In this document: positions 1,594 to 49,753 of the stretch, in pieces
How positions within the stretch are numbered: the first letter of the stretch is position 1
Layout: every line of letters starts with the position of its first letter
Virus record (IMG/VR): IMGVR_UViG_3300037851_000865
Coordinates: 29,232 to 93,231 of that record
Source: a virus
DNA length: 64,000 nt
Reading direction: 5' to 3' (one strand)
Made by a program: the position numbers and the translations under genes
Notes under the pieces: model-generated
Seen by the model: only the letters and a program-made list of their open reading frames with translations
What the model was told of the DNA's origin: nothing
The model's database searches: none

Positions 1594-2115
1594 ATGCACA
1601 AACTCAGCGGACTGATTCTTGACGTTGCAGATGACCAGAGGGGAGAAATTCTCCGTTCTGTTTTCCCGACAGCGGCTTCCATGCCCAACTTCGTCAAGAG
1701 TGCCCAATACGTCGGTGAGTCTCAGCGCAGCAGCCTGCCGGACACCATGTTCGCTCTTGTCCTTCGAGACGGAGACGTCAGCCTTCGGAAGTTTGCTTGT
1801 GCCACTTCGGGTGATACAGCCCTGAGTGTCGAGTACTTCATGAAGACTGCCCACAAGCTGCCTGTCGAGGCGCAGAAGGTGGCCGCCAGGAACCTTTGCG
1901 AGGCGTGCTCGTGGTACGATATCGAGCCGCCAGAGGGGTTGCAGAAGGTAGCTCTTGGGTTGGGAACAATGCTCAGCGCGGCCTTCATGGCCCCTGAGGC
2001 CGTGAACCAAGCGAAGGCAATAAAGGGTAACCTACAGATAGCGAAGCAGTCCGGCGGGATGGTAAATCCCGCTCTTGCCGGCGGGGCACAAGCAGCTCCC
2101 CCACAGGTGCAATGA
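1594..2115 (+). CDS. Putative virion (head) protein with K-x-A motifs
   Basis: 173 aa, GGAGG RBS; VKSA, MKTA, QKVA x2; first gene of the operon leading to portal. Confidence 0.7.
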   Translation: MHKLSGLILDVADDQRGEILRSVFPTAASMPNFVKSAQYVGESQRSSLPDTMFALVLRDGDVSLRKFACATSGDTALSVEYFMKTAHKLPVEAQKVAARNLCEACSWYDIEPPEGLQKVALGLGTMLSAAFMAPEAVNQAKAIKGNLQIAKQSGGMVNPALAGGAQAAPPQVQ

Positions 2116-3152
2116 TGGAACAAATCGGTCGTATTCAGTTGTGGCGAAAAATTGGCGGTGATGTTCTCGAGAAGGGAGCGGAGCTGGCCAGCACCTACGA
2201 CATGCCTGCGCAAGAGCCTCTGGACAAGATGCCCAACAAGGGGCAGCCGAAGGCTGTTCTGCGGAAGGTGGCTTCTGCCGGACATCTTGTGCAAACTTCA
2301 TCTGAGCCCGACCATGACTTTGTCTCCTTCTTGGAAGGCAAAGAGAAGGAGCTCGAGGGCGGTGTGCTTGGCGAGCAGAAAGACTCCTTGCCGCAAATGG
2401 CCGCGCTCGCACCACACGTAGACGTGAGCTCGTTTGAGCCGCCGAAGGTGCTCGAAGAGAAGAAGGCCAGCTACTACGCCCTCCCTGACTACGAGATGTA
2501 CCCGCTGGACAGCTACGTCCAGGTCAAGACGGCGAAGCGCTACTTCCTCGACAACTACCGGTACATGGCTCCCGAGGACCGCCATGAGTACTGCGCGAAT
2601 CTGACCAAGCGCGCCTCGGCACTGAACATTGTGACGGACCCTCTCATCGAGAAGTACGGGTCGGCTACGTATGCTCACCCCGATGCTATCGATGCTTGTT
2701 TGGCAGCTCGCCGCGAGTTCCTTCAGGACGAGGACCACATCGGCATTCTGGACAAGCTGGCTTCTGTTCGCCACGCCGTGGACCCCGACGTCTTCGCAGA
2801 GACTCTTGAGCGCTTTGACGTCTCAACAGGCATCGCCAACCAGTACAACGACTCGATGCCCGACGCGTACTTCAGCACCTTCGGGAAGACGGCCGAAGAG
2901 CTTGTCGAGCAGACCAGTCCCGAGACTTCTGTGGTGATTGGTAACGAGTACATCACTCGTCGCCGCCTAGCCGAGTACCTGCAGAACAACGTGAGCACAG
3001 TAGCGCAGCGCTTCGGCGCGGACGTAGCCAAGGAGATGTCCAACAGCCCCAACGACATCTTCGACAGCCTGCCTCGTGACCAGAAGCTGGTCATCATGCG
3101 CATGGCAAACAATGATGATTCCCCAGTCCGTCAGGCTATCCAGACTGCATGA
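2112..3152 (+). CDS. Putative virion (head) protein with K-x-A motifs
   Basis: 346 aa; RKVAS, EKKAS, VKTAK, DKLAS, GKTAE; ATGA-coupled. Confidence 0.75.
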   Translation: MMEQIGRIQLWRKIGGDVLEKGAELASTYDMPAQEPLDKMPNKGQPKAVLRKVASAGHLVQTSSEPDHDFVSFLEGKEKELEGGVLGEQKDSLPQMAALAPHVDVSSFEPPKVLEEKKASYYALPDYEMYPLDSYVQVKTAKRYFLDNYRYMAPEDRHEYCANLTKRASALNIVTDPLIEKYGSATYAHPDAIDACLAARREFLQDEDHIGILDKLASVRHAVDPDVFAETLERFDVSTGIANQYNDSMPDAYFSTFGKTAEELVEQTSPETSVVIGNEYITRRRLAEYLQNNVSTVAQRFGADVAKEMSNSPNDIFDSLPRDQKLVIMRMANNDDSPVRQAIQTA

Positions 3153-4003
3153 CCTTCGACACCGACGTCTTTGACCTTCGCTTCAAGAACGCCGCTGCTG
3201 GTCTGGGTCTCACAAAGACCGGCGCCGACGTCGTTGACGGAGTTGCGCCCGAAGACAACGATACGGTCATTGAAGACGACGATGATGTCACGGACGTTGA
3301 GGTAGAGGAGGAGCAAGACACCCCCCTGCCCGACGTCAATGTGGCGTCTGAAGATGACAAGACACGCCGTGTTCAGGTCAGCAACTTCTTCAGCCATCCG
3401 GATTCTCACCCAATCATCCTGGACCTTCTTCTTCTTCAGAAGTACGGTCCCGAGTGGTTTGATTGGGAGCACGAAACGCTTGAGCTTCGAGTGCAACATG
3501 ACTTCGGTCAGGCCGTCAGCGAGCTGAACATGCACAAGATTCAGGCCGCAAAGACGCTGCACTTCATCGATACGTACTGGAAGGAGTGGCACGTCTTCTG
3601 TTGGGTGACGATGGCCTTCAACGGCCTCTACCCAGACTTCGAAGTGATGCAGGTACCTACAGTCGCTCAGGCCATGGTCTCGGTCGACATCGCAAACCGC
3701 ATCCGCCAGGACGTGCCTTTCAGCCAGGAGCTCAACGATTTTCTCGAGCAGGTGCAGATGCATGACGGCATCTTTGTTCCCATCGAGCCTCTCACGTTCG
3801 TGACCATGGACGACGTGGACGACTACGTGGTGGACGTAGAAGAGGTGAAGAACCGCTGGCCTGACGTGCGCACATCAGGTAGGGCCCCGAAAGGCGACAC
3901 CGTAACGGACGAGCAGCTTCGTAGGATGCTTGACGTGCGAGAAATCCTCGAGGAGTCTCGCCAGGAGCTCAAGGAACAGCTGAGGCTGGTGGCACGTGGC
4001 TGA
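3149..4003 (+). CDS. Hypothetical protein with acidic N-terminal region
   Basis: 284 aa, translationally coupled within the portal operon. Confidence 0.75.
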   Translation: MTFDTDVFDLRFKNAAAGLGLTKTGADVVDGVAPEDNDTVIEDDDDVTDVEVEEEQDTPLPDVNVASEDDKTRRVQVSNFFSHPDSHPIILDLLLLQKYGPEWFDWEHETLELRVQHDFGQAVSELNMHKIQAAKTLHFIDTYWKEWHVFCWVTMAFNGLYPDFEVMQVPTVAQAMVSVDIANRIRQDVPFSQELNDFLEQVQMHDGIFVPIEPLTFVTMDDVDDYVVDVEEVKNRWPDVRTSGRAPKGDTVTDEQLRRMLDVREILEESRQELKEQLRLVARG

Positions 4004-4961
4004 ACAACTACCTAAGAATACGCTGGTGAAGGAAGGTGCCTCGCCTCTGGGTCTGGGACAGCGCGCCCTCGCCGCAGGCGGCCTTGGTGGTGTGGGTCTG
4101 GGTATCGGCGGGCTTGCGGGCGCACTCCTCGGAGGGGTGCGGGGTGCGCGCCGTGCGAAGGAAGAAGGCACCTCTGGTGTCTCCGGCGCTCTTCGTGGAG
4201 CTCTGGGGGGCGCCTCCAAGGGGGCTCTTCTCGGGGGGCTCGGAGGAGCGGTCGTTGGCGGTTTGGGCGGAAAAGCCACGCAGCAACTTTCTTCTAGCTT
4301 GGGCGGTGATGTTGGGGCGTTGGGCGCATTCAACCGTTTTGGTCAGCGCCAGGCCTATAGCCTGACTGGCGCTCTTCCCGAGGGAATGAGTGCCGCGAAA
4401 GGCAAGAAACTGCTTGGGCTGGGGCAGGCAAGTGGTCTGCGTGAGCAGGCTGCTCGCGAGGCCAGCACCGGTGCCAGCAAGGAGCAGGTGAGTAAGCTGC
4501 TTCGTGCCGCGAAAGCACACGCCGCTGCCGAGAACATGGGGCTAGACAACGTGCCGGGCTTCTTCAAGTCCCTGGCGTCTAAGCCGGCTGACACCCTCAA
4601 GACTCTTGCTGCTAAGGAGTGGCACGGCAGCCCCTCTGTCGCAGGGAAACTTTTGACCGTGGGCCTGCCTGCGGCAGCGCTCGCTGGTGACGCTTTTGGT
4701 CCTACAGGAGAAGGACGCACCAGGGCAGGTAACATCCTAGGTGGTGCTGGGTCTGCTCTTGGGTTTATGGCACCACTGCCTCTTGCGGGACAGGCAGTCG
4801 CTTCCGGTCTTTTAGGCGGTGCCGGTCGTCGCATGGGTAATCTCATCGGTCCCAAAGGCGCACGCCCCGCAAACCCGGGCCCCGAGCCTGAGCTTTCAGG
4901 AACTGAGTCGACCAGCGCTCCGCACGTCTACTCGCAACGTATGACTGGAGACTTCGCATGA
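3996..4961 (+). CDS. Gly/Ala-rich protein with several glycine-zipper hydrophobic segments; putative internal/ejection protein
   Basis: GLGGVGLGIGGLAGALLGG, GALLGGLGGAVVGGLGG, ILGGAGSALG...; GTG start; directly upstream of portal. Confidence 0.7.
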   Translation: MAEQLPKNTLVKEGASPLGLGQRALAAGGLGGVGLGIGGLAGALLGGVRGARRAKEEGTSGVSGALRGALGGASKGALLGGLGGAVVGGLGGKATQQLSSSLGGDVGALGAFNRFGQRQAYSLTGALPEGMSAAKGKKLLGLGQASGLREQAAREASTGASKEQVSKLLRAAKAHAAAENMGLDNVPGFFKSLASKPADTLKTLAAKEWHGSPSVAGKLLTVGLPAAALAGDAFGPTGEGRTRAGNILGGAGSALGFMAPLPLAGQAVASGLLGGAGRRMGNLIGPKGARPANPGPEPELSGTESTSAPHVYSQRMTGDFA

Positions 4962-7039
4962 GCTTCTGTGGTTTTGGCGCTGGGCCTGGCGGCACTTCTC
5001 TCGGCGGCCCTGCTGTTACGCGGGGGCGCATTCAGGGCAGTATGGGTGCGGTCAACTACCCGAACCCTTTCTTTGACATCGCGCACACGTACCTGCCGAC
5101 GACCGTCAAGGAGCTCTTCAAGTACTGCCGTTACTACTTTCTCACGAACCCGCTCATCAACGCGACGGTGTTCAAGCTGAGTGAGTACCCGGTCACCGAC
5201 ATCATCATCGACCACGAGAACGGTGAGGTGAAGAAGCGTTGGGAGGAGTACTTCCACGACCATCTGCAGTTCCGCCCTTTCCAGGTGGAGTGCGGGCTCG
5301 ACTACAACACATATGGCAACTGTATGGTCAGTCTCGCGTTTCCTTTCGCGAAGCACCTGACCTGCCCGAGCTGTGGGTACACCGAGAAGGCGAAGAAGAT
5401 TCGCCAGCACTGGACGTTCACGAACTATGGGTTTCGCCTGAACTGCCCCTCTTGCGGGATGACCGACGAGGCCCGGGTTAAGGATGTCTATTACAAGAAC
5501 GCGTCCGGCATCAAGCTCATCCGGTGGAACGTCGAGGATGTGGAAATCACGTACAACGACGTGACGGGCGAGAGCACGTACTTCTACAACATCCCCGGGC
5601 CGCTCCGCAGCGACATCGTCATCGGCAAGAAGGACATCGTCGAGTCGGTGCCGCAAATCTTCATTCAGGCCCTGCGTCAGCAGAAGGGCATCGTCTTCAG
5701 CAAGGACAATCTCTTCCACATGAAGCGTCCGACGCTCGCGTGGCAAGACCGTGGGTGGGGTATTCCGCTCATCCTCCCGGTCCTGAAGGATGCCTTCTAC
5801 CTGCAGCTGATGAAGAAGGCGCAGGAAGCCATCTTGCTTGAGCACATCGTACCTCTTCGAGTGCTCTTCCCGCAGGCCGCTACAGGGACCACCGACCCCT
5901 TCACCACCATCAACCTGGTGCAGTGGAAGGAGCAGGTGGCGGCTGAGATTGGTCGCTGGCGCTACGACAACAATTACATCCCCATCATGCCGCTGCCTCT
6001 CGGCAACCAGAGCATCGGTGGTGACGGTAAAGCCCTGCTCATGTTCAACGAGATGAACATGCAGCAGGAGACACTCATCATGGGTATGGGTGTTCCGCGC
6101 GAGTTCCTTCAGGGCGGTCTAAGCTACTCAGGCACCAACGTTTCGATGCGCATGCTCGAGAACGCGTTCATTGGATACCAGCTTCGACAGAAGCTCATGG
6201 CCAACTGGATTATGAAGATGGTCGCCGGGTACATGGAGTGGACCGAAGCGACGATTCGCTTCAAGCCCTTCAAGATGGCGGACGACATTCAGCGCAAGGC
6301 GTACATGCTCCAGCTGAACCAGGCGCAGAAGATTTCCGACACGACCCTCTTGGCCGATGCTGACCTTCGTCAAGAGGACGAAGACGAAATCATGATGCGT
6401 GAGACCGCGAAGCGTCTGCAGGCGACCCGCAAGCAGCAGCTCGCGATGGCTGACGTTCAGGGCGAGGCTCAACTCATCCAGATGAAGTATCAGGCCAAAG
6501 CCCAGCAGGCGATGGCGCAGGAGCAGGGCATGCCTGCTCCCGGGGAGCCTGGAGGAGCCGAGGGTCAAATGGACCCCATGGCTGCACAGCAGCAGGCGCA
6601 GACGGCCCAGCAGCAACAGCAGGCTGCCCAACAGCAGCAGATGGCTATGCAGGCCGGCGGCGGGGCTACGCAGACTCCTAAGCAAGGCCTGCAGATGATG
6701 GGCATGCCTTCACCGGAACAAATGCTGCCGAGTGGTGGTGTGGCTGACTCGAGTCTTGGCGGTATGCCGCAAGAAGCACAGAGCCAGCTTGGTGCCGGGG
6801 CACAGGGCGGCGGCATGGACATCCAGGCGATGGCCCAGATGTACGCTCAGCAGATTGTAGGCATGGACCCGCGGGAGCAGGACATGGCGATTCAGATGCT
6901 GCAGCAGCAGTCCCCACAACTGGCTCAGTTGGTCATGCAAATTGTCATGAGCATGCAGCCTCAGCAGCAGCCAACTGGAGTAGACCAGCGTCCACTTCCG
7001 AACCAGAAGCCCGAGCGTCGAGCCGCGGCATCTGTTTAG
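4958..7039 (+). CDS. Portal protein with zinc-ribbon insertion and Gln-rich C-terminal tail
   Basis: 693 aa; portal-like pattern (NPLINATVFKLSEYP; HMKRPTLA...WGIPLILP; LIMGMGVPREFLQGG...SMRMLEN); CPSCG x2; head-gene context. Confidence 0.8.
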   Translation: MSFCGFGAGPGGTSLGGPAVTRGRIQGSMGAVNYPNPFFDIAHTYLPTTVKELFKYCRYYFLTNPLINATVFKLSEYPVTDIIIDHENGEVKKRWEEYFHDHLQFRPFQVECGLDYNTYGNCMVSLAFPFAKHLTCPSCGYTEKAKKIRQHWTFTNYGFRLNCPSCGMTDEARVKDVYYKNASGIKLIRWNVEDVEITYNDVTGESTYFYNIPGPLRSDIVIGKKDIVESVPQIFIQALRQQKGIVFSKDNLFHMKRPTLAWQDRGWGIPLILPVLKDAFYLQLMKKAQEAILLEHIVPLRVLFPQAATGTTDPFTTINLVQWKEQVAAEIGRWRYDNNYIPIMPLPLGNQSIGGDGKALLMFNEMNMQQETLIMGMGVPREFLQGGLSYSGTNVSMRMLENAFIGYQLRQKLMANWIMKMVAGYMEWTEATIRFKPFKMADDIQRKAYMLQLNQAQKISDTTLLADADLRQEDEDEIMMRETAKRLQATRKQQLAMADVQGEAQLIQMKYQAKAQQAMAQEQGMPAPGEPGGAEGQMDPMAAQQQAQTAQQQQQAAQQQQMAMQAGGGATQTPKQGLQMMGMPSPEQMLPSGGVADSSLGGMPQEAQSQLGAGAQGGGMDIQAMAQMYAQQIVGMDPREQDMAIQMLQQQSPQLAQLVMQIVMSMQPQQQPTGVDQRPLPNQKPERRAAASV

Positions 7040-31228: not shown

Positions 31229-31242
31229 GCCGTAAGGAGCTG

Positions 31243-32851: not shown

Positions 32852-33226
32852 ATGAACCACAAAGAGAAGACTGCACAGGTACTGCAGGACGCGGCCAACA
32901 TCGTTCGCGCTGTGTCCGCTGAACGCGATGAGCTCGCAGAGAAGCTCGCCGCCGAGCAGCGCAAAACCGCATCCTACGAACGCCGCGTGTCGGCCGAGAA
33001 GGTCGCGGCAATGATGCACCAGAAGGGCATCAACACCGACATCGATTTTCCCACCTTGGTAGCCGACCTTGAGAAGGCTGCCTCGGAGGGCAAGCTGGAC
33101 ACCATCGAAGAAGCGGTCGAAATGGTGGGTCCGGATATGGGTTTGAAGACCGCATCAATCAACCATGATGCACCCGCTGCAACTGGGTCCGACTTTGAGC
33201 GGTTCCTGACCGGCACAGTCGGCTGA
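32852..33226 (+). CDS. Coiled-coil head assembly protein
   Basis: 124 aa; EKTAQ, EKLAA, RKTAS, EKVAA, EKAAS, LKTAS. Confidence 0.75.
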   Translation: MNHKEKTAQVLQDAANIVRAVSAERDELAEKLAAEQRKTASYERRVSAEKVAAMMHQKGINTDIDFPTLVADLEKAASEGKLDTIEEAVEMVGPDMGLKTASINHDAPAATGSDFERFLTGTVG

Positions 33227-33809: not shown

Positions 33810-34931
33810 ATGTCTGCAAGAATGCTCAATGATGCCTTCGCCGCCAAGCTCTCGACTGCTGACGGCAAGGAAAAGCTCGCTGCGTATGGCGGCTCGTACA
33901 TCCGAGACCGTCTTCGTGAAGTGAGTTTCGCACGCAAAGTCCTGCCTCCTGAGCAGGTCACCCGCCAGGACTGCCAGCGCTCGACGCAGCACGACACCCT
34001 CGTGAAGATTGTCGACATCGAGCCGAAGAGCCGCGCGATGGCAATCAGCTTCCGTGGCGAGTCCACCACGCGGTTTATCCGCGGTGAGCGCGCTGAGGCG
34101 GCGTTCTTCACCATCACCTCGGAAATCTTCCAGAAGACCGAGCAGGAGCTTCTCGCCTACGAGATGCCCATCACCAAAATCATCGAAGAGAACTCGGTGA
34201 AGGATATCCAGGAGATTGAGGACCGCGAGTTCCTCCTCCACATCGAGGCAGCCGTCCAGGCTCTCCAGACCGAGGCCAACGGTGGTACCCCCACCGCGCT
34301 CAACAACACCAACATCCAAGCTGGTTCTGTTGTGGAGTTCTCGGTTCGCAAGGGTCTTCTCGCTCGTGAGGACACCAATGCACCCAGTGCTGCGGTTCGC
34401 CCCATTCAGCGTCCGGACATCGTCGAGCTCTTCAAGATGCTCGACGGCAACCGTCTCCGTGCGGAACGCCTCCTCATGACCGAGGTTGATTACGACGACG
34501 TCCTTCAGTGGACCGTTGACGACAACGGCGACCGTATCCAGTCGGAGACGACGGTCGACGGGTACAAGTACAACACGCTCCTCGGCCGCGCGTACATCCG
34601 CACGGTCAAGACGGACATCCTCCGTCCGGGCAACGTGTATGTCTTCACCCGCCCCGAGTTCCTCGGGAAGTTCTTCGTGCTCAACAACACGAAGTTCTAC
34701 ATCGACAAGGTCGCAAACCTCATCTCTTTCCAGGCTTGGGAAGACATCTCGATGATGATTGCGAATATCGCATCGGTTCGAAAGCTCGAGCTCTACAGCG
34801 CGGACGCGAACCCGACCACCAACGCGGACAGCCTCCTCGCCAACTTCATCCCGAAGGCGGAAGAGGACCTCGGAGCGGCCAACAACCGCGTCGAGGAAGG
34901 CCTCAAGTTCCCGCAGGTCGTCCAGTTCTGA
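33810..34931 (+). CDS. Major capsid protein (HK97-like fold inferred)
   Basis: 373 aa, strong RBS, strongly biased codons, follows protease/scaffold/decoration genes and is followed by a terminator. Confidence 0.8.
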   Translation: MSARMLNDAFAAKLSTADGKEKLAAYGGSYIRDRLREVSFARKVLPPEQVTRQDCQRSTQHDTLVKIVDIEPKSRAMAISFRGESTTRFIRGERAEAAFFTITSEIFQKTEQELLAYEMPITKIIEENSVKDIQEIEDREFLLHIEAAVQALQTEANGGTPTALNNTNIQAGSVVEFSVRKGLLAREDTNAPSAAVRPIQRPDIVELFKMLDGNRLRAERLLMTEVDYDDVLQWTVDDNGDRIQSETTVDGYKYNTLLGRAYIRTVKTDILRPGNVYVFTRPEFLGKFFVLNNTKFYIDKVANLISFQAWEDISMMIANIASVRKLELYSADANPTTNADSLLANFIPKAEEDLGAANNRVEEGLKFPQVVQF

Positions 34932-38473: not shown

Positions 38474-38484
38474 AGGAGCACAAC

Positions 38485-39834
38485 ATGTTGGACGCATTTC
38501 TCGCAGTGACCTGCGAACACGAAAAGAAGGCTGCTGCATACGACAGCATGGTGCAGGATTTCATGAAGCTCCCCATGTCGGAGCTCAAGAAGATTGCTTC
38601 GGGCAAGACGAAGCTCGCCTACCACGACGAGGAGTGGCTCGAGAAGTTCGAGGGCTCGCCGCTGTATGATGAAGCGCTTGCCCTTGAAGAGGCTTGTCTG
38701 AGTCTGGATATCGAACAGAAGCAGCGTGACATCGCGCGACAGGCTGAGCGCGCTGAAGACAGTGACCTCTGGAAGCAGCGTGATGCCATCAGCCTGAAGA
38801 AGCGCATTCTCGAGCTCGAGCTCACTAAGTCTCGTCTAGGTGCCGGTCACTCAGGCACTAAGGAGGACGAGAGTGAAGAGGAGGAGTACGAGACCGCCGT
38901 AGCCTCTCCTGCCGTGGAGGCTCGTACGAAGGAGGCCGGACTCATAACACGCGCAGGTAAAGCTCCTTCCGATATTATGGCGGAGCGTGAGGCACAAGGC
39001 AGAGGCCATGGAGGCAGCGTGGGGGCTAGTGCCGGTGCTTTGCTAGGAGCGCTGGAGGGTTTGCGTCGTTCGGGTATGCATGGTCTGCCTGCCTCCCTGG
39101 GGTATGCTGCCGGAGGAGCGGCGCTCGGTGGTCTTGGCGGGGGTCTGACCGGTTCTGCTCTTGGCGGACATATTGGACGCAATATAGCTGCTGCTGACCT
39201 TGAGGCGGCACGTTCTGGCGAAGCGTCGCTGGAAGAAGCAGATGAGCTGGACGCTGCTTTTGACCAGTACCGCAAAGCAACAAGTCACGAGCGCGACGTG
39301 GCAGCTCGTGGAGCTGCCTACGGCGTCCCCGTTGGGGCTCTTGCAGGCGCCTCGCTCAGCCATGCGCTGGGGGGCCGTCCTGGTGTAGGTGCTTTGCTGG
39401 GGGGCGGCGCAGGTTCTGTCATGGGAACGCTCGCTGGCGGCGCCATAGGTAGAAGGGGAGATAACGCCGCTGCCAGAGAGTTGGCTGATAAGCGTCTCAC
39501 GAAGGCTATGGAACACCTGGACCGAGAGCCGCAGAAGCTCGCTGGTATCTCCCAGGAAACCGTTGAGCAGATGCGTAAAGAAGCCTTTGGCGCCGCCATG
39601 ATGGCAGGGCTGAAGGGTCTCGGGCAGGGAGCTGCTACAATGGGCAAGGCCGTCCAGTCTGGCTTCGCTCGAAAAGGCATGGCGGGTGCCCTCAGTAATG
39701 CGAAGCGCCTTGGCGGTGCGCAGCTTGGGCAGGCCGCGAAGTGGGTAGGGCAGAACCCTGGCGCAGCTGCCGGTCTGGCAGGTGCAGGTCTTGCTGGTGC
39801 TGCCGGGGCGGGATACCTGGCAGGTCGTGACTGA
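38485..39834 (+). CDS. Putative internal/ejection protein with multiple glycine zippers
   Basis: 449 aa; EKKAA, KKIAS, TKLAY, TKEAG, QKLAG, RKEAF; about five Gly-zipper segments. Confidence 0.75.
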   Translation: MLDAFLAVTCEHEKKAAAYDSMVQDFMKLPMSELKKIASGKTKLAYHDEEWLEKFEGSPLYDEALALEEACLSLDIEQKQRDIARQAERAEDSDLWKQRDAISLKKRILELELTKSRLGAGHSGTKEDESEEEEYETAVASPAVEARTKEAGLITRAGKAPSDIMAEREAQGRGHGGSVGASAGALLGALEGLRRSGMHGLPASLGYAAGGAALGGLGGGLTGSALGGHIGRNIAAADLEAARSGEASLEEADELDAAFDQYRKATSHERDVAARGAAYGVPVGALAGASLSHALGGRPGVGALLGGGAGSVMGTLAGGAIGRRGDNAAARELADKRLTKAMEHLDREPQKLAGISQETVEQMRKEAFGAAMMAGLKGLGQGAATMGKAVQSGFARKGMAGALSNAKRLGGAQLGQAAKWVGQNPGAAAGLAGAGLAGAAGAGYLAGRD

Positions 39835-42653: not shown

Positions 42654-45600
42654 GTGGCAGACGAACTAGCCAGGCCTGGGGTTGAGGTCATCCAGGAGTT
42701 TCGCACGGTAACTCCGTCCATCATTACTCCCACGCTGGTACCGAACGTTCTCGGCGTGGCGAAGCAGATTGTTGAAGTACAGATTCCCAACGGCTCGGGC
42801 GGCGTTCAGTTGAACCCGAATGCGCTTGTGGTGATGCCTGCTTTCTTCATCGCCGCCCCAGGTAGTGGCAATCCTTTGCGCTACACAGGTCTTGGTGGGC
42901 TCCTGCTTGTCATCTCCGCAAATGAGTCCCCTGACATCACCCTGGTCTTCAGTGACCCTACGGCTTTTGGCCTGACACCGGCTACCGTGGTCGACCAAAT
43001 CAACAAGCAGCTTGCAGCGCAGCTTGTCACGTCTGTGGTCGCCGAGACGGTCGGCGCAGATACTTGGCAGCTCCGCACTGTCGGTGTTGGTGAGTTCCAG
43101 TCCATCGCTGTGGTCGCTGGAACGTCGCCTGTGGTGGCGAGCACCTTCGGTCTCGGTATCGGTCAGACGTATCTGGGGCTCACCTCGTACAACCAGTACG
43201 CGGTGGTCATCCCCCCGACGTCACTGCCGGACCCGAACAACAACCTCGACGAGCTTGCAGTAGAAGCATCCACCGTCCGGGTGTTCCTCTCGACAGGTTC
43301 TGGCGGGCTTCAGGAAGCACTTCGCACCAGCTCCTTCTTGAGCCGCGGTGAGGTGTCCTGGCCAGGTCAGACGACTGAGGGTACAGTCAACCTTACTGGT
43401 CCGTTCCCCTTCTTCTCGGGCCAGGTCATCTGGGTACGCACTGAGGTGGGGGAGATTCAGGTCGTTGCTATCCCGGCAACCGTCAACACGTCTGCCCAGC
43501 TGCTCGCCCTGCTTAACGGCATGTCCGGTCTGGTCGGCATCACGGCGTCCCTTGGGGCCGGCAATGGTCTGGTTCTGACACGCAGCACAGGTGAGGGCGG
43601 CCAGAGCTCGTTCGTTGAGATTCTGCAGCCCGACGTCAACTCCGCAAACCTTCTGCTCGGGCTCACCCCGCAGAAGGCGGAGGGCGTCAGCATCGCGGTC
43701 ATCGACGACGGCAACGGGGACGCCATCAGTCCCTTGGTGCAGTTCGACGGGCTCGACTTCACCACACCCGGAGGCACTGCGGTTCTTTCGGGCGGCGGTG
43801 CTGTAGACTTTCCGCTTCTCGCTAACACCACCCTGGTGCTTAGTGACGGCGGGCAGCCTCAGACCATCGACTTCGGGGCAACTCCTCCGGCAAACATGAC
43901 GCAGCTCAAGGCTGCCATCGAAGCAGTTGTGGGTCCTGTCGCTGGCGGGAACATCGTTGTTACGTCCCCTTCGCCGAACCTCATTCTCACCAACACGCTC
44001 CTGGGTGACCAGTCGTTCGTGCAGGTGATTGGAGGCACGGCTTTGCCGAAGCTCGACAGCGGTACGACTGTCGCGTCGTCGTCAGAGGGCTCGGTCAGCC
44101 TCAACCCGAACTTGCCGGCAACCACCACGGAGGGCACCGTCAATCTGGCGGACGGCATCACCTTCCCTGTGCTTGGTACGCAGACCTTCAGCATCAATAT
44201 CGGTGGCGGCCCCATCCTGGTGACGCTTGCTAGCGAAGCAACGTTTGCTGCGCTGAAGGCCAACATCGAAGGCACCATCGGCCTGGTCGGCCAGATTGTT
44301 GTAACCCGTGCGTCAGGCACCACGGGCGGTATGGTCATCAAGACAGTTGCTACTGGAGGTGCGGCGACCATCACGGTAACCGAAGGCACTGGTGCAGCTG
44401 CTCTCCTCGGCCTCGCGCTGGAGACCGTGCTCGGTGTGACTGTGTTCCCGACCATTGCCGCGCAGACCTTCAGTGTTGATGTGGACGGCGCAGGTCCTAC
44501 GCTGGTCACGCTGGCAAGTGAGACCAACTTTGCTGCCGTCAAGGCGAACATCGAAGGCGTAGTTACCGACGTTGTGGTCACACAGGGGCCGAACGGAGGC
44601 ATCGTCATCTCAGGCGACGGCACATCCGTCGGCGTCGGCAACACCATCGAGATTATCGAAGGTGCTGGCGGCGCGGCTCTCCTGGGACTCCCGGTCGGTA
44701 CTGTGTTCGCAGGCAACGGTGAGCTCATTGTGGCTGGTGCTTCGGCAAACGGTGCTCCGTTCCCGCCGGCTCCCGGCGACCAGCTCTACATCGATGGCGT
44801 GTATTTCGCAGACATCACCAAGGTCGCTCCTGGCGGTCTCTCGGATGTTCTTCGAATCAATCGCCAGGTCCCCATCGACGTCAACATCGGCCAGTACTTC
44901 TACCTCGTTGCGAAGAATCTGGTTGCTGGTGACCCGCTGAATGGCGTGACTCGTCCGTTCCCGGACCTCATCGTTGATGGGGCCAACAACCTCCTCTTGA
45001 AGCCCAATCAGCTTCGGGACATCCGAGGCGTTCCGGTCCCCAGCAAGGCACCGCTCTACGTGGCCTACTCGGCCGTCCGTCAGGACGTTACCGCTCTGGC
45101 GGCACAGCCTGGTCTCCTTCGCTTCAACGACACACTATCACTCGAGCAGACGCTTTCGCCCATCAACACCGACAACCCTCTCGCTCTCGGGCTCTTCTTC
45201 GCGCTCGTGAACGCCCCGGGTATCGAGGTGACGGGGCTTGGCGTTGATGCTGTGAGCGCAGATGCTCCGTACGGCACGGTCGAGGCCTTCACCCGCGCTT
45301 TCGAGTACCTCGAGAGCTTTGAGGTGTACGCCATCGCACCGCTGACGCACGACCAGACGGTTGCTCAAGTGGCCAACACCCACGTCAACTTCATGTCGAG
45401 TCCGACCCAGAAGGGCGAGCGTATCACCCTCTGGAATCCCGAGACTCCCACACGCGAAGTGGACAAGCTCGTGGCTTCCGGCACCGACGGTGATGCTCTG
45501 ACCACGGTGACCTTCGATACGAAGGTTGCTGGTTTGTCTGCGCTGCTCAACAACGCAGGCGTCAACCCAGTGGGCATCATCCCGACCACCGCAGGTGTGT

Positions 45601-46442
45601 TCCTGGATATCGCAGGCGATGACAGTGCCTACTCGGTCGAGAGTATCTCGGGCGGCGTGGTTACTATTCGCACGCTCTTCCAGGCAGGCACCAACGACGA
45701 TTCGTTCTACTCCACGACTCCTCTAAGTCTGCCCATCATCTCAACCGCGTTCGCTATTCGTGTACGCGGCTCTGAGCTTGTGACGACCGCGGGTACGACG
45801 GACAAGCCTCGAGTCGCGACCACGGTCGCAGCACTCGGAAAGTCTTTCCAGAATCGTCGGTTCTGGATGACCTTCCCCGATGCTTGCGGTGCAACCATCG
45901 AAGGGCTCGAGCAGCGCATCGAGGGCTTCTACATGAATGCCGCCATCGTCGGCATGATTGGACAGCAGCCTCCGCAGCAGTCGTTCACCAACTATCCGAT
46001 GGCGGGCTTCACGCGCGTCTTCGGGTCGAACGACACCTTCTCGGAGAGCCAGCTGAACCAGATGGCGGCCGGCGGTGCGTATGTCATCGTGCAGGACACC
46101 CCTGGGGCACCGCTCACGAGCCGCATGGCGCTGACCACGGACCTCACGTCCATTGAAACTCGTACGGACTCCATCACAAAGGTGGTGGACTTCACGGCGA
46201 AGTTCATGCGGCGCGGTCTGCGCAACTTCATCGGGCGGTTCAATATCACGCAGGGCTTCCTCGACACCCTCGGCTCTGTCATTCAGGGTCTCGGCGGGTT
46301 CCTCGTGGAGACCGGCGTACTCATCGGGCTCACCTTGAACAACCTTGTTCAAGACGAAGACGCTCGCGACACCGTGCTGGTCGATTGTACTCTCGACCCG
46401 CCCTACCCATGTAACTACATCCGTCTGACCCTCGTGGTGTGA
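42654..46442 (+). CDS. Contractile tail sheath protein with large repeated insertion domains (1262 aa)
   Basis: N-term ELARPGVEVIQE; C-term sheath core (FEYLESFEVYAIAPL...SITKVVDFTAK...VLVDCTLDPPYPCNYIRLTL); precedes the tube gene. Confidence 0.88.
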   Translation: MADELARPGVEVIQEFRTVTPSIITPTLVPNVLGVAKQIVEVQIPNGSGGVQLNPNALVVMPAFFIAAPGSGNPLRYTGLGGLLLVISANESPDITLVFSDPTAFGLTPATVVDQINKQLAAQLVTSVVAETVGADTWQLRTVGVGEFQSIAVVAGTSPVVASTFGLGIGQTYLGLTSYNQYAVVIPPTSLPDPNNNLDELAVEASTVRVFLSTGSGGLQEALRTSSFLSRGEVSWPGQTTEGTVNLTGPFPFFSGQVIWVRTEVGEIQVVAIPATVNTSAQLLALLNGMSGLVGITASLGAGNGLVLTRSTGEGGQSSFVEILQPDVNSANLLLGLTPQKAEGVSIAVIDDGNGDAISPLVQFDGLDFTTPGGTAVLSGGGAVDFPLLANTTLVLSDGGQPQTIDFGATPPANMTQLKAAIEAVVGPVAGGNIVVTSPSPNLILTNTLLGDQSFVQVIGGTALPKLDSGTTVASSSEGSVSLNPNLPATTTEGTVNLADGITFPVLGTQTFSINIGGGPILVTLASEATFAALKANIEGTIGLVGQIVVTRASGTTGGMVIKTVATGGAATITVTEGTGAAALLGLALETVLGVTVFPTIAAQTFSVDVDGAGPTLVTLASETNFAAVKANIEGVVTDVVVTQGPNGGIVISGDGTSVGVGNTIEIIEGAGGAALLGLPVGTVFAGNGELIVAGASANGAPFPPAPGDQLYIDGVYFADITKVAPGGLSDVLRINRQVPIDVNIGQYFYLVAKNLVAGDPLNGVTRPFPDLIVDGANNLLLKPNQLRDIRGVPVPSKAPLYVAYSAVRQDVTALAAQPGLLRFNDTLSLEQTLSPINTDNPLALGLFFALVNAPGIEVTGLGVDAVSADAPYGTVEAFTRAFEYLESFEVYAIAPLTHDQTVAQVANTHVNFMSSPTQKGERITLWNPETPTREVDKLVASGTDGDALTTVTFDTKVAGLSALLNNAGVNPVGIIPTTAGVFLDIAGDDSAYSVESISGGVVTIRTLFQAGTNDDSFYSTTPLSLPIISTAFAIRVRGSELVTTAGTTDKPRVATTVAALGKSFQNRRFWMTFPDACGATIEGLEQRIEGFYMNAAIVGMIGQQPPQQSFTNYPMAGFTRVFGSNDTFSESQLNQMAAGGAYVIVQDTPGAPLTSRMALTTDLTSIETRTDSITKVVDFTAKFMRRGLRNFIGRFNITQGFLDTLGSVIQGLGGFLVETGVLIGLTLNNLVQDEDARDTVLVDCTLDPPYPCNYIRLTLVV

Positions 46443-46473
46443 TGCGGTAAGATAAGGCAAGGAGACCGACAAA

Positions 46474-47238: not shown

Positions 47239-47250
47239 TAGGAGCACGAC

Positions 47251-47643: not shown

Positions 47644-47646
47644 AGC

Positions 47647-47982: not shown

Positions 47983-47986
47983 ACCA

Positions 47987-48262
47987 ATGGCGTTCGTGAC
48001 GTTTCTCAAGCGCTTAGTCGGTCAAGACCAAGAAGCGATTGATACAGAGAGACGTTTCAAAGCGCGTCTGCAAGATGTCGACGACCGCACCAGTGAGCTG
48101 GCCGCTGCCAGTAAAGCTATAGAAGCAATCCTGTGTTCCGTTGAGACCAAGAGCGAGAACATAGCGATATCCGTAGCCAGCTCTGGGGTTTCTGGGGAGC
48201 ACCGTATTACACTGCCTGCTGAGCAAGCAGGAGTAAGAGACGATGCACGAGAAGATATCTGA
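47987..48262 (+). CDS. Small coiled-coil hypothetical protein
   Basis: 91 aa from ATG 47987. Confidence 0.55.
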   Translation: MAFVTFLKRLVGQDQEAIDTERRFKARLQDVDDRTSELAAASKAIEAILCSVETKSENIAISVASSGVSGEHRITLPAEQAGVRDDAREDI

Positions 48263-48833
48263 CATCGATTCACAGGTTATCCGGCGTAAAGACCTCGTAG
48301 AGCTCGGTGACGACTTCAAGCGAGCGCTGAGCCCCATCACGGTGGTCATCTCCCACCTAGAGCGTACGAATAAGGATGTACGTCTTACACGCCTGCTGGT
48401 CCTGCTTGTGGCCGCGCTGGCTGCTGTGGTGCTTGTCGTCCTGTTTCTTGTAGTAAGGCAAGTAGCAGGTGTTGTTCAGCAGGTAGAGGGTCTCCACAGC
48501 CGGGGCGTGGTTGCTGTCGAGGAGCTGGAGAAGCTCACCGTCGCAGTAACACAAGCAAAGGCGAGCACAGAGCGTGTGGAGGAGGCTAGTAAGTCTCAGT
48601 CTACTCTTCAGCTGGTTGCTGAGACTGACCCTGTGAGGGCCCGGAAGGCGCCTGTCAAGCTTGTCATTCAGCCCCCGGCTGCTTCGACATCTTCGCCCCC
48701 AGAGAAGAAGCCCGTAATGTCTACGGGCTTTGGGAGTGCCCCGCGCTCGGCTAGCATGAAAGAAGTTCCCGAGTCCCCGGTTCCGCCGATGCCTCCGCTA
48801 GAAATACCCATCACAGATTTAGGGCCAAGATGA
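48243..48833 (+). CDS. Single-pass membrane protein with coiled coil and Pro-rich tail; spanin-like candidate
   Basis: LLVLLVAALAAVVLVVLFLVV TM segment. Confidence 0.55.
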   Translation: MHEKISDIDSQVIRRKDLVELGDDFKRALSPITVVISHLERTNKDVRLTRLLVLLVAALAAVVLVVLFLVVRQVAGVVQQVEGLHSRGVVAVEELEKLTVAVTQAKASTERVEEASKSQSTLQLVAETDPVRARKAPVKLVIQPPAASTSSPPEKKPVMSTGFGSAPRSASMKEVPESPVPPMPPLEIPITDLGPR

Positions 48834-49753
48834 ATCAGCCAAACCCACAGCTTCTTCAGCGATACGGTACCAGCGACTTCTACCTAGGTAACTTGGAGAA
48901 GAAGGCCAACACACCGTCTTTGACGCAGCTACTGGGCGCGGGAGGCACAGCAATGCTGCTTCGAGCTCAGGGTGAGCACCAGGAGCGACAAGTACAGGAG
49001 GCGGTTGTGATGACCGCTATGCTGCGAGAGCTGGCGGCACGTAAACAGCAGGGTGTCATCGCAGGCTTGTCCGGAAAAGGTGCCGCCCTCTCTGCGTCAG
49101 GCAGGGCCGCACAAGCACTGAACGAGATGCGCCAGTACCAGTCGATGATGTCTCTTTTGGACAAGCGTGCGAGCGCTGCACAAGAGGAGCTAGAGAAAGA
49201 AGCTTTTGTTGGCAGGCTGATGGCTTCTGCGGGTAAGGGGCTGGGTTCCATGGGTCGCGGGCTTGCAGGTACCGCGGCACAGCAGGCAGTAGGTAAGGGA
49301 CTCGCTCCTGGTATCGGCAATAGCTTGCGTGAGATGGGGGCGAAGATGCAGGCTACGGGTATGCGCCTTGACCGGCACGGATTTGGTGCTCAGGGGCGTC
49401 TCTCCCAGGCCATGGCTGAACAGGGCATGAAGCTTCCTGGCGCTGCTCGCGCCCCCGCTGCAGGTGCTGCTCGTGCAGCCGCACCTGCGGTGAAGGGTGC
49501 CCCCGGTATTCAGGGAGCCGCACAAGCGGCAGTTCAAAGCAAAGGCCCAGGAGTGCTCCAAGGAGTCAAGGATGCGCTAACCCCCGGGTGGAAAACCAAG
49601 GCTGGTCTCATCGCTGGGGGTCTCGGTGCTGCGTATCTCGGGTACAAAGGCCTGCAGGCAGTCAAGGACTACATGATGATGCCTTCTGGAGGGCATCATC
49701 CAGGCATGCTGCCTGGGCGTCTTAACGAGTACGGATACGTCAATCCCTACTGA
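48830..49753 (+). CDS. Putative internal/ejection protein: K-x-A motifs then a cationic amphipathic Gly-rich region
   Basis: EKKAN, DKRAS, EKEA-FVGRLMASAGKGLG...; AGLIAGGLGAAYLGYKGL. Confidence 0.7.
   Translation: MNQPNPQLLQRYGTSDFYLGNLEKKANTPSLTQLLGAGGTAMLLRAQGEHQERQVQEAVVMTAMLRELAARKQQGVIAGLSGKGAALSASGRAAQALNEMRQYQSMMSLLDKRASAAQEELEKEAFVGRLMASAGKGLGSMGRGLAGTAAQQAVGKGLAPGIGNSLREMGAKMQATGMRLDRHGFGAQGRLSQAMAEQGMKLPGAARAPAAGAARAAAPAVKGAPGIQGAAQAAVQSKGPGVLQGVKDALTPGWKTKAGLIAGGLGAAYLGYKGLQAVKDYMMMPSGGHHPGMLPGRLNEYGYVNPY

What the first reader, a model, noticed from the sequence alone, without database searches (positions are those of the whole stretch)
1594..49753. Pervasive K-x-A-(S/A/G) motif marks head proteins: candidate prohead-protease cleavage or capsid-targeting signal
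Seen: the motif recurs in ORFs at 1594, 2112, 19752, 26542, 28030, 28500, 30257, 31243, 32852, 33810, 36647, 38485, 40742 and 48830 (e.g. EKTAS, TKTAS, AKLAS, QKQAS, DKEAS, EKRAS). It appears in the capsid N-terminus (GKEKLAAY), before the catalytic domain of the protease (FEKTASA) and in the protease C-terminal tail. It is not evident in the sheath or tube. Known: T4 gp21 (I/L-x-E) and phiKZ gp175 (S/A/G-x-E) cleave many head proteins at a short motif. Inference: this phage uses a Lys-x-Ala specificity instead, and the motif identifies its inner-head proteome.
Basis: partly seen in the sequence, partly recalled or inferred. Interest (0 to 1): 0.8.

Follow-up and report, generated by a model that had tools for sequence, protein, structure and literature searches.

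The report
Lys-x-Ala head-protease cleavage code
The head-assembly proteins of this 176-kb uncultivated-type phage and its many relatives carry a conserved Lys-x-Ala-(Ser/Ala) motif. It is most likely the cutting signal of a new family of head-maturation proteases that share the fold of the T4 and herpesvirus proteases but do not cut after glutamate.

Summary
K-x-A-S occurs 30 times in the window's ORFs against 6.8 expected (z 8.9), and K-x-A-S-[AVSG] 23 times against 2.3. An unbiased scan ranks it the top gapped tripeptide in the head module. Mirror, register-shifted and Arg versions sit at chance. The excess lies in about 10 proteins; the terminase, portal and sheath are at chance, and the presumed tube has no site.

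K and A are kept in 85-100% of orthologs at many sites whose flanks are only 10-50% identical. The same motif tops the head modules of distant relatives (Salmonella phage Arash, Vibrio phage D69, a 196-kb metagenomic contig).

ORF 28500-30221 is a prohead protease by fold: VZV protease Z 9.8, T4 gp21 Z 9.0, and many "prohead protease" matches among viral models. It has no Pfam family. H118, S174 and H216 are invariant. Conserved motif sites sit before the protease domain, in a disordered linker and near the C-terminus, a layout like herpesvirus pUL26.

The literature searched gives only Glu-directed motifs for T4- and phiKZ-type phages. This scan has noted the same code in other genomes (e.g. 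e1-5326997). I class it as a new variant of a known kind.

The parts
28500..30221 (+). Prohead protease precursor (573 aa). It has an N-terminal propeptide, an assemblin/gp21-fold domain, a disordered linker, a helical C-terminal domain and a tail.
   Evidence: AF2 models; VIA Z 9.8 to VZV protease and 9.0 to T4 gp21; BFVD prohead-protease matches; family of 2540 representative clusters; no Pfam family.
28581..28598 (+). Site 1 in the protease, F-E-K-T-A-S (residues 28-33), directly before the folded domain. Putative N-terminal autoprocessing site.
   Evidence: K 98% and A 98% conserved in 46 orthologs. Retained in most of the 56 diverse family representatives as hydrophobic-x-K-x-A-(S/A/G); a few lack it. 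Model pLDDT <40 here.
28608..29384 (+). Protease domain (residues 37-295) with invariant H118, S174 (in the D-V-S-M-G motif), D182, H216, D266 and S268.
   Evidence: Invariant columns of the diverse alignment A3. pLDDT 91.8. The hhalign local match puts S174 on T4 gp21 S140, but E 0.45 is not significant. Inteins are inserted right after DVSMG and right before HHRNK in relatives.
29448..29462 (+). Site in the disordered linker, A-K-V-A-S (residues 317-321). It resembles a herpesvirus release (R) site.
   Evidence: K 100% and A 98% conserved while flanks are 15% identical and full of indels. Linker pLDDT is 31-41.
30048..30065 (+). Site near the C-terminus, L-K-L-A-S-A (residues 517-522), about 55 residues from the end. 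It resembles a herpesvirus maturation (M) site.
   Evidence: K 98% and A 89% conserved; flanks 33% identical.
33810..34931 (+). Major capsid protein (373 aa). Its K-x-A site, E-K-L-A-A, lies at residues 21-25 (nt 33870-33884).
   Evidence: phrog_2522 major head protein, E 2.6e-12. K and A are 100% conserved in 42 orthologs, with +3 mostly E. The Arash and D69 capsid proteins have G-L-x-K-E-A-G at residue 27.
26542..28023 (+). Head-module protein (493 aa) with 6 motif sites. Syntenic with Arash gp220, a virion protein by MS.
   Evidence: 6 observed vs 1.1 expected. At sites 28, 239 and 270, K and A are 96-100% conserved with flanks 34-49% identical. Arash gp220 has 7 sites and was detected in virions.
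28030..28500 (+). Small Gly/Ala-rich protein (156 aa) with one site at residue 11.
   Evidence: K-x-A is kept in 52% of orthologs. Weak on its own.
30257..31228 (+). Acidic, Lys/Ala-rich scaffold-like protein (323 aa) with 6 sites.
   Evidence: 6 observed vs 1.8 expected. Sites 34 and 61 are conserved, K 86-93% and A 100%. Its position between protease and capsid gene matches T4 gp22.
31204..32841 (+). Low-complexity head-module protein (545 aa from the TTG start; an ATG lies at 31243) with 7 sites.
   Evidence: 7 observed vs 2.2 expected. At site 164, K is 100% and A 87% conserved with flanks 15% identical.
32852..33226 (+). Small helical protein (124 aa) with 5 sites.
   Evidence: 5 observed vs 0.38 expected, P 5e-5. 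At sites 50 and 75, K and A are 97-100% conserved. The ortholog in distant locus L085 has 3 vs 0.24.
19752..21932 (+). 726-aa protein of unknown fold with 9 sites, the most enriched protein in the genome.
   Evidence: 9 observed vs 0.78 expected, P 1.5e-7. A 650-aa protein at the equivalent position in L085 has 6 vs 1.1. No family or fold was found.
2112..3152 (+). 346-aa protein in the portal gene cluster with 4 K-x-A-S sites.
   Evidence: 4 observed vs 0.43 expected, P 1e-3.
36647..38473 (+). 608-aa Gln/Ala-rich, poorly conserved protein with 3 K-x-A-S sites (residues 36, 234, 243).
   Evidence: 3 observed vs 0.69 expected. Only one ortholog was found among the related loci.
38485..39834 (+). 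449-aa Gly/Ala-rich protein with 5 sites (residues 14, 15, 36, 149, 351).
   Evidence: 5 observed vs 2.0 expected, borderline. No ortholog was found in the related loci.
48830..49753 (+). 307-aa Gly/Ala-rich protein downstream of the sheath and tube genes with 2 sites. A weak, doubtful member.
   Evidence: Not individually enriched.
4958..7039 (+). Portal protein (context and negative control).
   Evidence: 32% identical to the Arash gp204 portal, E 4e-92. K.A[SAG] 1 vs 0.6 expected.
23646..25454 (+). Large terminase (context and negative control).
   Evidence: PF05876 GpA_ATPase, E 6.5e-10. No K-x-A site at all.
42654..46442 (+). Tail sheath (negative control).
   Evidence: phrog_279 tail sheath, E 3e-6. 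1 site vs 0.5 expected.

Best explanation
K-x-A-(S/A) is the recognition and cleavage site of the phage's own head-maturation protease, the product of ORF 28500-30221. The extended form is (E/D)-x-(L/F/M)-(E/G)-K-(L/T/V/I)-A-(S/A)-(A/V/L).

The enzyme is a serine protease with the assemblin/T4 gp21 fold. It belongs to a large sequence family that has not been described. It is made as a precursor: a propeptide of about 33 residues, the protease domain, a disordered linker and a helical C-terminal domain.

Inside the assembled prohead it would cut itself at three places: before the domain, in the linker and about 55 residues from the C-terminus. It would also trim about 24 residues from the capsid protein. 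It would cut the scaffold-like and internal proteins (ORFs 2112, 19752, 26542, 30257, 31204, 32852, and probably 36647 and 38485) into pieces, removing N-terminal propeptides or targeting segments and clearing space for DNA.

Shown here: the enrichment and its controls, the conservation, the fold, the invariant His/Ser residues and the domain layout. Inferred: that cleavage occurs, that this enzyme does it, and that the scissile bond is K-x-A|(S/A), with Lys at P3, Ala at P1 and Ser/Ala at P1'. That bond is inferred by analogy with the P3-x-P1 reading of T4 (I/L-x-E|), phiKZ (S/A/G-x-E|) and herpesvirus (V/L/I-x-A|S) proteases.
For: Statistics:
- K.AS occurs 30 times vs 6.8 expected and K.AS[AVSG] 23 vs 2.3.
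- K.AS is the top pattern in an unbiased scan.
- Mirror, shifted and Arg controls are at chance.
- The rest of the genome is at expectation.
- The enrichment lies in about 10 proteins, all in the window.

Conservation:
- In 29 related 21-kb loci, K.AS occurs 437 times vs 68 expected.
- At many sites K and A are kept in 85-100% of orthologs, while x varies and the flanks are 10-50% identical.
- A conserved (E/V)-K-x-A-(S/G) island survives in a linker full of indels.
- The same motif tops the head modules of Arash and D69, whose proteins are 26-30% identical, and of a distant family member, L085.
- The site before the protease domain is kept in most of the 56 diverse representatives.

Enzyme:
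- The domain model has pLDDT 91.8.
- VIA gives Z 9.8 for VZV protease, 9.0 for T4 gp21 and 7.1 for HCMV protease; the best unrelated chain scores 5.3.
- There are 99 BFVD matches at E<=1e-3, many named prohead protease.
- H118, S174 and H216 are invariant.
- Inteins in relatives sit exactly at the DVSMG and HHRNK motifs, as inteins often do at active sites.

Position:
- The first site lies within 55 residues of the N-terminus in 10 of 12 carriers (P 0.006).
- The three linker sites and the N-terminal site of the protease fall in low-pLDDT segments; the C-terminal site at residue 518 does not.

Method control: the same scan on T4 core proteins returns I.E and L.E, the known gp21 motif (motif as cited in PMC5694885).

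Precedent: T4 gp21 is activated by removal of N-terminal residues that block its active site (PMC9958956). SPN3US and phiKZ proteases cut their own C-termini (PMC5694885).
Against: - No protein-level data exist for this phage or any relative. The Arash virion MS paper does not mention processing and reports only coverage percentages. It lists 100% coverage for gp221, gp223 and gp224, which does not suggest that fragments are lost.
- The protease family gives no significant sequence match to known protease families (Pfam none; hhalign vs T4 gp21 E 0.45). Foldseek against PDB is not significant (best E 0.06).
- The geometry of the catalytic residues was not checked. The third triad member is undecided (H216, D266 or D182).
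- Several window sites are not conserved in position.
- In most relatives the capsid site has E, not S/A/G, at +3. Either +3 is tolerant or that site is structural.
- Counter-selection of the motif in the packaged-type RNAP is seen in the window (8 vs 17.6) but not in Arash or D69.
Confidence: 0.7

Rival explanations
1. The motif is a short docking or targeting motif that is bound but not cut. It might attach scaffold and internal proteins to the inner capsid surface, to the protease's C-terminal domain or to each other during prohead assembly.
For: It is multi-copy in scaffold-like proteins and conserved in disordered segments, as binding motifs also are. Arash homologs of the carrier proteins are found in virions with high reported coverage. 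The capsid copy has a different +3 residue.
Against: The sites bracket the protease's own domain in the way autoprocessing sites do in T4, phiKZ-type and herpesvirus enzymes. There is a strong N-terminal bias. The three-position P3-x-P1-like pattern with a free middle residue matches protease motifs. A dedicated protease is encoded in the middle of the carrier genes. No binding partner is evident.
Confidence: 0.15
2. The motif is a cleavage site, but the bond cut is not after Ala (for example directly after Lys, as in Lys-directed prohead proteases), or the cutting enzyme is another phage or host protease.
For: Lys is the only strictly basic-specific position, and Arg does not substitute. The scissile bond cannot be read from sequence. 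Other notes of this scan propose cuts after Lys in unrelated phages (unchecked).
Against: An invariant residue two positions after the cut, with a free residue right after it, would be unusual. The P3-x-P1 pattern is shared by the structurally related T4, phiKZ and herpesvirus enzymes. The protease gene co-occurs with the motif in every lineage examined. No second protease was noticed in the head module.
Confidence: 0.1
3. The pattern is a by-product of Lys/Ala/Ser-rich helical or low-complexity composition and has no specific function.
For: Several carriers are Ala- and Lys-rich. K.AA enrichment is weaker (z 4.3) and K.AG is absent.
Against: Shuffles within each protein control for composition. 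Mirror and shifted patterns are at chance. Specific K and A columns are invariant amid variable flanks. The same motif appears in relatives only 26-30% identical.
Confidence: 0.03

Closest known systems
T4 gp21 prohead protease (MEROPS S77) and its I/L-x-E cleavage motif
   Same: Same fold (Z 9.0, 131 of 165 residues aligned, rmsd 2.8). The gene sits among core, scaffold and capsid genes. A three-position motif with a free middle residue is spread over core proteins, the capsid N-terminus and the enzyme itself. There is an N-terminal propeptide before the domain. The same enrichment scan recovers both motifs.
   Different: No significant sequence similarity. The motif is K-x-A instead of I/L-x-E, so there is no Glu at the presumed P1. 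The protein is 573 aa with a long linker and a helical C-terminal domain, against 212 aa in T4. The enrichment is much stronger than in T4.
phiKZ gp175 / SPN3US gp245 prohead proteases (MEROPS S80), motif S/A/G-x-E or A-x-E
   Same: Large phages whose virion-type multisubunit RNAP genes lie near the head genes. Many head proteins carry the motif. The protease cuts its own C-terminus (PMC5694885).
   Different: Those enzymes all cut after Glu, and here the motif has Lys/Ala. No sequence relationship was detected. In SPN3US the portal is processed; here the portal carries no excess of sites.
Herpesvirus assemblin/pUL26 (MEROPS S21), sites (V/L/I)-x-A|S
   Same: Best structural match (VZV protease Z 9.8, HCMV protease Z 7.1). 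Ala followed by Ser/Ala at the core of the motif resembles the A|S (or A|T) release and maturation sites (PMC4498786). The precursor layout is the same: protease, a linker with a site, a C-terminal assembly domain and a site near the C-terminus. His, Ser and His are invariant in the same order.
   Different: Lys rather than a hydrophobic residue lies three positions before the presumed cut. There is an extra site before the protease domain. The motif also occurs in many separate head proteins. No nested scaffold gene was examined. Cleavage at A|S is inferred, not shown.
HK97-type prohead proteases (MEROPS S78, COG3740)
   Same: Many BFVD matches carry this annotation (E 1e-6 to 1e-5). The general fold and role are the same.
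   Different: Only 8-13% identity. No Pfam match. From my own knowledge, HK97-type enzymes are not known for a pervasive multi-protein motif.

Membership tests
Assemblin-fold capsid maturation proteases (S21 / S77 / S78 / S80) | Shared three-dimensional fold of the catalytic domain | tested here: met
   Domain model pLDDT 91.8. VIA gives Z 9.8 (VZV protease), 9.0 (T4 gp21), 7.1 (HCMV protease) and 5.0 (KSHV protease); the best unrelated chain scores 5.3. There are 99 BFVD matches at E<=1e-3, many named prohead protease. Foldseek against PDB ranks herpesvirus proteases first but is not significant.
Assemblin-fold capsid maturation proteases (S21 / S77 / S78 / S80) | Sequence membership in one of the curated families (a Pfam protease model) | tested here: not met
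   No Pfam family for the full protein at E<=0.01 or for any of 62 domain sequences at E<=1. A PDB profile search found nothing relevant. hhalign vs T4 gp21 gave E 0.45.
Assemblin-fold capsid maturation proteases (S21 / S77 / S78 / S80) | Conserved catalytic Ser and His (plus a third His or Asp) in the order His-Ser-His/Asp | tested here: inconclusive
   H118, S174, H216, D182 and D266 are invariant in 62 diverse sequences. S174 aligns with T4 gp21 S140 in a non-significant local alignment. Inteins are inserted at both motifs. Spatial proximity in the model could not be inspected.
Assemblin-fold capsid maturation proteases (S21 / S77 / S78 / S80) | Gene located in the head-morphogenesis module next to scaffold and major capsid genes | tested here: met
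   The order is terminase 23646, protease 28500, scaffold-like 30257 and capsid 33810. The same order holds in Arash, D69 and L085.
Assemblin-fold capsid maturation proteases (S21 / S77 / S78 / S80) | Proteolytic activity on prohead proteins | not testable with these tools
   No biochemical or proteomic data are available. The Arash MS paper reports coverage only.
Prohead-protease cleavage-motif systems of T4 / phiKZ type | A short motif over-represented in head-core proteins and present at the capsid N-terminus and in the protease itself | tested here: met
   Positive control on T4.
Prohead-protease cleavage-motif systems of T4 / phiKZ type | Cleavage C-terminal to glutamate (x-x-E|) | tested here: not met
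   The conserved positions are Lys and Ala. Glu is only frequent at -1 and -4 relative to Lys. I.E and L.E patterns are not among the enriched patterns here.
Herpesvirus pUL26-type protease-scaffold precursor | N-terminal protease, a release site in a linker, a C-terminal assembly domain and a maturation site near the C-terminus | tested here: met
   The layout comes from the AF2 model (folded 37-265, disordered 265-353, helical 360-540) and from conserved sites at residues 318 and 518. That these sites are cut is inferred.
Herpesvirus pUL26-type protease-scaffold precursor | Scissile bond Ala|Ser | not testable with these tools
   The motif has A followed by S/A. The PrV sites are YLQA-T and VQA-S (PMC4498786). 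The bond cut here is unknown.

The most novel reading that the evidence does not exclude
This huge, unnamed protease family (2540 clusters at 50% identity) may be the closest phage counterpart of the herpesvirus maturation system. It would be an assemblin-fold enzyme made as a protease-linker-assembly-domain precursor that cuts at Ala|Ser. Its new determinant would be Lys at P3, which lets the whole processed inner-head proteome of thousands of uncultivated ~180-kb phages be read directly from sequence.
Probability: 0.4. Interest if true: 0.75.

Novelty: new variant of a known kind. Interest (0 to 1): 0.62.

Why it matters
Head-maturation cleavage motifs are experimentally known for only a few phage groups. 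In the large myoviruses studied so far (T4, phiKZ, 201phi2-1, SPN3US) all are Glu-directed.

A Lys-x-Ala code, tied to a very large and environmentally widespread protease family with no family assignment, would do three things:
- It would show that assemblin-fold proteases have diversified their specificity far more than is known. One result would resemble the herpesvirus Ala|Ser sites.
- It would give a sequence-only way to predict which proteins are packaged and processed in the heads of a large clade of mostly uncultivated phages whose genes are otherwise unannotatable.
- It would supply sites and an enzyme that are easy to test by co-expression.

The Salmonella phage Arash and the Vibrio phages D69, D148 and D181 are cultured relatives in which it can be tested.

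Tried and rejected
- Megablast of the head module against GenBank phages found no match.
- PHROGs and Pfam gave nothing for most carrier proteins.
- The full-length AF2 model of the protease was poor (pLDDT 64). Its PDB searches were weak: Foldseek was not significant, and VIA gave Z 4.7 for T4 gp21. The domain-only model solved this.
- A profile search of PDB sequences found nothing relevant.
- hhalign against T4 gp21 was not significant.
- An ESM Atlas search for ORF 19752 found no usable hit. A tblastn of ORF 19752 against Arash found no match.
- The supplement of the Arash paper holds annotation only, with no peptide lists, so mature termini could not be read.
- Complex prediction of the protease domain with its own N-terminal 36 residues gave no verdict (score 0.22, below the mark). 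It counts neither for nor against.
- Counter-selection of the motif in the virion-type RNAP shows in the window (K.A 8 vs 17.6, P 0.009) but is absent in Arash and D69, so it was dropped as an argument.
- Cheng et al. 2004 (PMC2279824) is not held, so the T4 catalytic residue numbers rest on the T4 sequence, PMC5694885 and my memory.
- The listing of cluster members gave no organism names for relatives.
- Literature searches for a K-x-A prohead-protease motif found nothing. The library is partial, so this is not proof of absence.

Full report
**Context.** The window is bases 29232-93231 of a single 175,761-bp contig, a large phage genome of about 57% G+C. Megablast finds no near relative among GenBank phages. 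At the protein level the capsid and protease genes match only Salmonella phage Arash (181 kb) and Vibrio phages D69, D148 and D181 (187 kb), at 26-30% identity. Metagenomes hold a very large clade of 175-200-kb contigs with 55-90% identical head genes.

Landmarks in the window:
- portal 4958-7039, 32% identical to the Arash gp204 portal;
- a 2159-aa RNA polymerase, 11337-17816, matching both Arash gp206 and gp216;
- large terminase 23646-25454 (PF05876);
- major capsid protein 33810-34931 (phrog_2522);
- tail sheath 42654-46442 (phrog_279).

**1. The observation.** Over 63 ORFs of the window, with residues shuffled within each protein, the counts are as follows:

| pattern | observed | expected | z |
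|---|---|---|---|
| K.A[SAG] | 70 | 28.6 | 8.0 |
| K.AS | 30 | 6.8 | 8.9 |
| K.AS[AVSG] | 23 | 2.3 | 13.7 |
| K.AA | 27 | 12.4 | 4.3 |
| K.AG | 13 | 9.5 | 1.2 |

An unbiased scan of all tripeptides with up to two gaps in the head module ranks K.AS first (23 vs 2.9, P 1e-13). The following hits (KTA, KT.S, L.K.A, EK.A, K.A.A, K..SA) are pieces of the same longer motif.

The pattern is directional, register-specific and Lys-specific. On the 11 motif-bearing proteins (a set chosen for the motif), K.AS is 27 vs 2.5. The mirror SA.K is 3/2.5, R.AS 1/2.0, KA.S 3/2.5, K..AS 1/2.5 and KAS 2/2.5.

Genome-wide, the excess sits in about ten proteins, all in the window. They are ORFs 19752 (9 vs 0.78), 32852 (5 vs 0.38), 26542, 2112, 28500, 31204 and 30257, and more weakly 36647 and 38485. 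The rest of the genome is at expectation: K.A 211 vs 215.5 and K.A[SAG] 62 vs 53.5. The terminase has no K-x-A at all. The portal and sheath are at chance, and the presumed tube has none.

ORF 40742 has only K-L-A-E. ORFs 1594, 28030, 33810 and 48830 are not individually significant.

**2. Conservation.** In 29 related 21-kb loci centred on the capsid gene, K.AS occurs 437 times against 68 expected, and it is enriched in every locus. I aligned orthologs of the head-module proteins. At many sites K and A are kept in 85-100% of sequences, the middle residue varies freely, and the flanks are only 10-50% identical:
- ORF 26542, sites 28, 239 and 270;
- protease, sites 30, 318 and 518;
- ORF 30257, sites 34 and 61;
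- ORF 31204, site 164;
- ORF 32852, sites 50 and 75;
- capsid protein, site 22.

The clearest case is the protease linker. This segment is full of insertions and deletions, yet one island, (E/V)-K-x-A-(S/G), survives in all 40 aligned sequences.

Pooling the conserved sites gives (E/D)-x-(L/F/M)-(E/G)-K-(L/T/V/I)-A-(S/A, less often E or G)-(A/V/L). The invariant core is therefore K-x-A. In most relatives the capsid site reads E-K-(I/L/M)-A-E-Y. Some window sites are lineage-specific.

In the distant relatives Arash and D69, the same unbiased scan puts L.K.A, K.AS and EK.A first (P 1e-13 to 1e-15). Their sites fall in the syntenic genes, at residue 27 of the capsid protein and just before the protease domain. 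A member of the protease family about 45% identical, on a 196-kb contig (L085), shows the same distribution. The genes before the protease, the protease, the scaffold-like genes, the 124-aa protein and the capsid N-terminus are enriched. The terminase and the post-capsid genes have none.

**3. The enzyme.** ORF 28500-30221 (573 aa) has no PHROG or Pfam family. It belongs to a very large family: 1322 hits in the 90%-clustered database, and 2540 representative clusters at 50% identity with E<=1e-3.

The full-length AF2 model is poor overall (pLDDT 64) but shows the architecture: disordered 1-36, folded 37-265, disordered 265-353, helical 360-540. A domain-only model built on 62 diverse sequences reaches pLDDT 91.8.

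An exhaustive structural comparison with 48,161 PDB chains gives these matches, with the best unrelated chain at Z 5.3:
- VZV protease, Z 9.8 (124 residues, rmsd 3.7);
- T4 gp21, Z 9.0 (131 of 165 residues, rmsd 2.8);
- HCMV protease, Z 7.1;
- KSHV protease, Z 5.0.

Foldseek against PDB also ranks herpesvirus proteases and gp21 on top, but without significance. Against predicted viral structures there are 99 matches at E<=1e-3. They include phage G gp19, phiRSL1, PaBG and many entries named prohead protease or COG3740.

Invariant residues across the diverse set include H118, S174 (in D-V-S-M-G), D182, H216, D266 and S268. A non-significant hhalign match nevertheless aligns S174 with Ser140 of T4 gp21, in G-V-S-S-R. 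Many family members are interrupted by inteins placed exactly after D-V-S-M-G or exactly before H-H-R-N-K. That fits these being active-site motifs.

**4. How the motif sits in the proteins.** The protease precursor has conserved sites at three places: directly before the folded domain (F-E-K-T-A-S, residues 28-33), in the disordered linker (site at 318, with a partly conserved K-x-A at 333), and about 55 residues from the C-terminus (L-K-L-A-S-A). The site before the domain is retained in most of the 56 diverse family representatives examined.

This mirrors known autoprocessing. T4 gp21 removes N-terminal residues that block its active site (PMC9958956). The SPN3US and phiKZ proteases cut their own C-termini (PMC5694885). 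Herpesvirus pUL26 has a release site between protease and scaffold and a maturation site near the C-terminus (PMC4498786).

In 10 of 12 carrier proteins the first site lies within 55 residues of the N-terminus, against 5.6 expected (P 0.006). That is what one expects for propeptides or targeting segments that are removed.

**5. Method control and literature.** Applied to T4 gp67, gp68, gp21, gp22, gp23 and gp24, the same scan returns I.E (23 vs 10.3) and L.E (23 vs 11.9) as the top gapped pairs. This is the known gp21 motif. The signal here is far stronger. The literature I could search describes only Glu-directed motifs for T4, phiKZ, 201phi2-1 and SPN3US, and nothing on K-x-A. The Arash paper does not discuss a protease or processing.

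**6. Mechanism proposed.** The motif is most likely the recognition site of this protease (confidence about 0.7). The scissile bond is inferred, not shown. All structurally related enzymes read P3 and P1 with a free P2: T4 I/L-x-E|, phiKZ S/A/G-x-E|, herpesvirus V/L/I-x-A|S. I therefore favour K-x-A|(S/A). That makes the P1/P1' pair herpesvirus-like and Lys at P3 the new determinant.

The consequences would be:
- loss of about 24 residues from the capsid protein;
- release of the protease domain from its N-terminal peptide and its C-terminal assembly domain;
- fragmentation of the scaffold-like and internal proteins.

**7. What weakens it.**
- There are no protein data.
- The Arash virion MS lists the syntenic proteins gp220 to gp225.1 as virion components with high coverage, and the capsid protein at 86.6%. 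This neither shows nor excludes processing.
- Sequence-level links to known proteases are absent.
- The triad geometry was not inspected.
- The +3 position is loose.
- Motif depletion in the RNAP is seen here (8 vs 17.6) but does not replicate in Arash or D69.
- A complex prediction of domain plus propeptide gave no verdict (see Tried and rejected).

**8. Rivals.** A bound-but-uncut docking motif (0.15) is the main alternative. A cut at another bond or by another enzyme (0.1) keeps the cleavage idea but changes the details. A compositional artefact (0.03) is disfavoured by the controls.

**9. Novelty and earlier notes.** The kind of system is known: a prohead protease with a short motif written across head proteins. 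The specificity, the protease sequence family and the herpesvirus-like precursor layout in a phage are new as far as the searched literature shows. I class it as a new variant of a known kind.

The scan has already noted the same K-x-A code in other genomes (e1-5362240, e1-5365314, e1-5377239, e1-5352021). One follow-up (e1-5326997) reached the same reading. These are AI notes on related DNA, not independent evidence. They do show that the finding is a property of the clade, not of this genome.

Noticed in passing
window 28500-30221 and relatives P0127, P0130, P0131, P0137, P0142, P0155, P0181: Many members of this protease family are interrupted by one to three inteins (lengths 900-1690 aa; Hint and LAGLIDADG Pfam domains). 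The inteins sit directly after the D-V-S-M-G motif (next residue Cys) or directly before H-H-R-N-K. Further break points lie near domain positions ~33, ~155 and ~205. The window's own copy has no intein.
   Followed up: partly
window 11337-17816: A single 2159-aa ORF matches both Arash gp206 (annotated RNAP beta; 32% over 1558 aa) and gp216 (beta'; 23% over 665 aa). The two large RNAP subunits are therefore fused here. In Arash both are among the most abundant virion proteins by MS. This agrees with first-reader note e1-5360721.
   Followed up: partly
window 42017-42652: An HNH / endonuclease VII-like gene (phrog_1035, E 3.5e-14) sits directly upstream of the sheath gene. It is found in only 3 of the related loci, so it is probably a mobile homing endonuclease.
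   Followed up: no
window 42654-46442: The tail sheath is unusually long (1262 aa). Only its last ~170 residues match a sheath family, and it has very few lysines (1.5%). The next ORF (46474-47238, presumed tube) has no lysine at all.
   Followed up: no
window 28500-30221, residues ~555-573, and alignment A1: Beyond the last K-x-A site, many orthologs share a second conserved C-terminal tail, Q-(S/A)-x-A-(S/G)-V-(K/E/Q)-R-G-x-P-S-R-N-T-W. It could be a capsid- or portal-binding tail, like the C-terminus of the herpesvirus scaffold.
   Followed up: no
window 36647-39834 and 48830-49753: Three poorly conserved Gly/Ala/Gln-rich proteins with glycine-zipper-like stretches carry motif sites near their N-termini. 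They have almost no orthologs in otherwise syntenic relatives. They may be variable cargo or ejection proteins.
   Followed up: no
L001 (Arash gp223, gp225) and L002 (D69 0271): The scaffold-like proteins of Arash and D69 contain internal tandem repeats, each carrying a motif copy (E-L-V-K-E-A-S alternating with (D/E)-L-E-K-(A/S/V)-A-A-V). The site is thus duplicated together with its helix.
   Followed up: no
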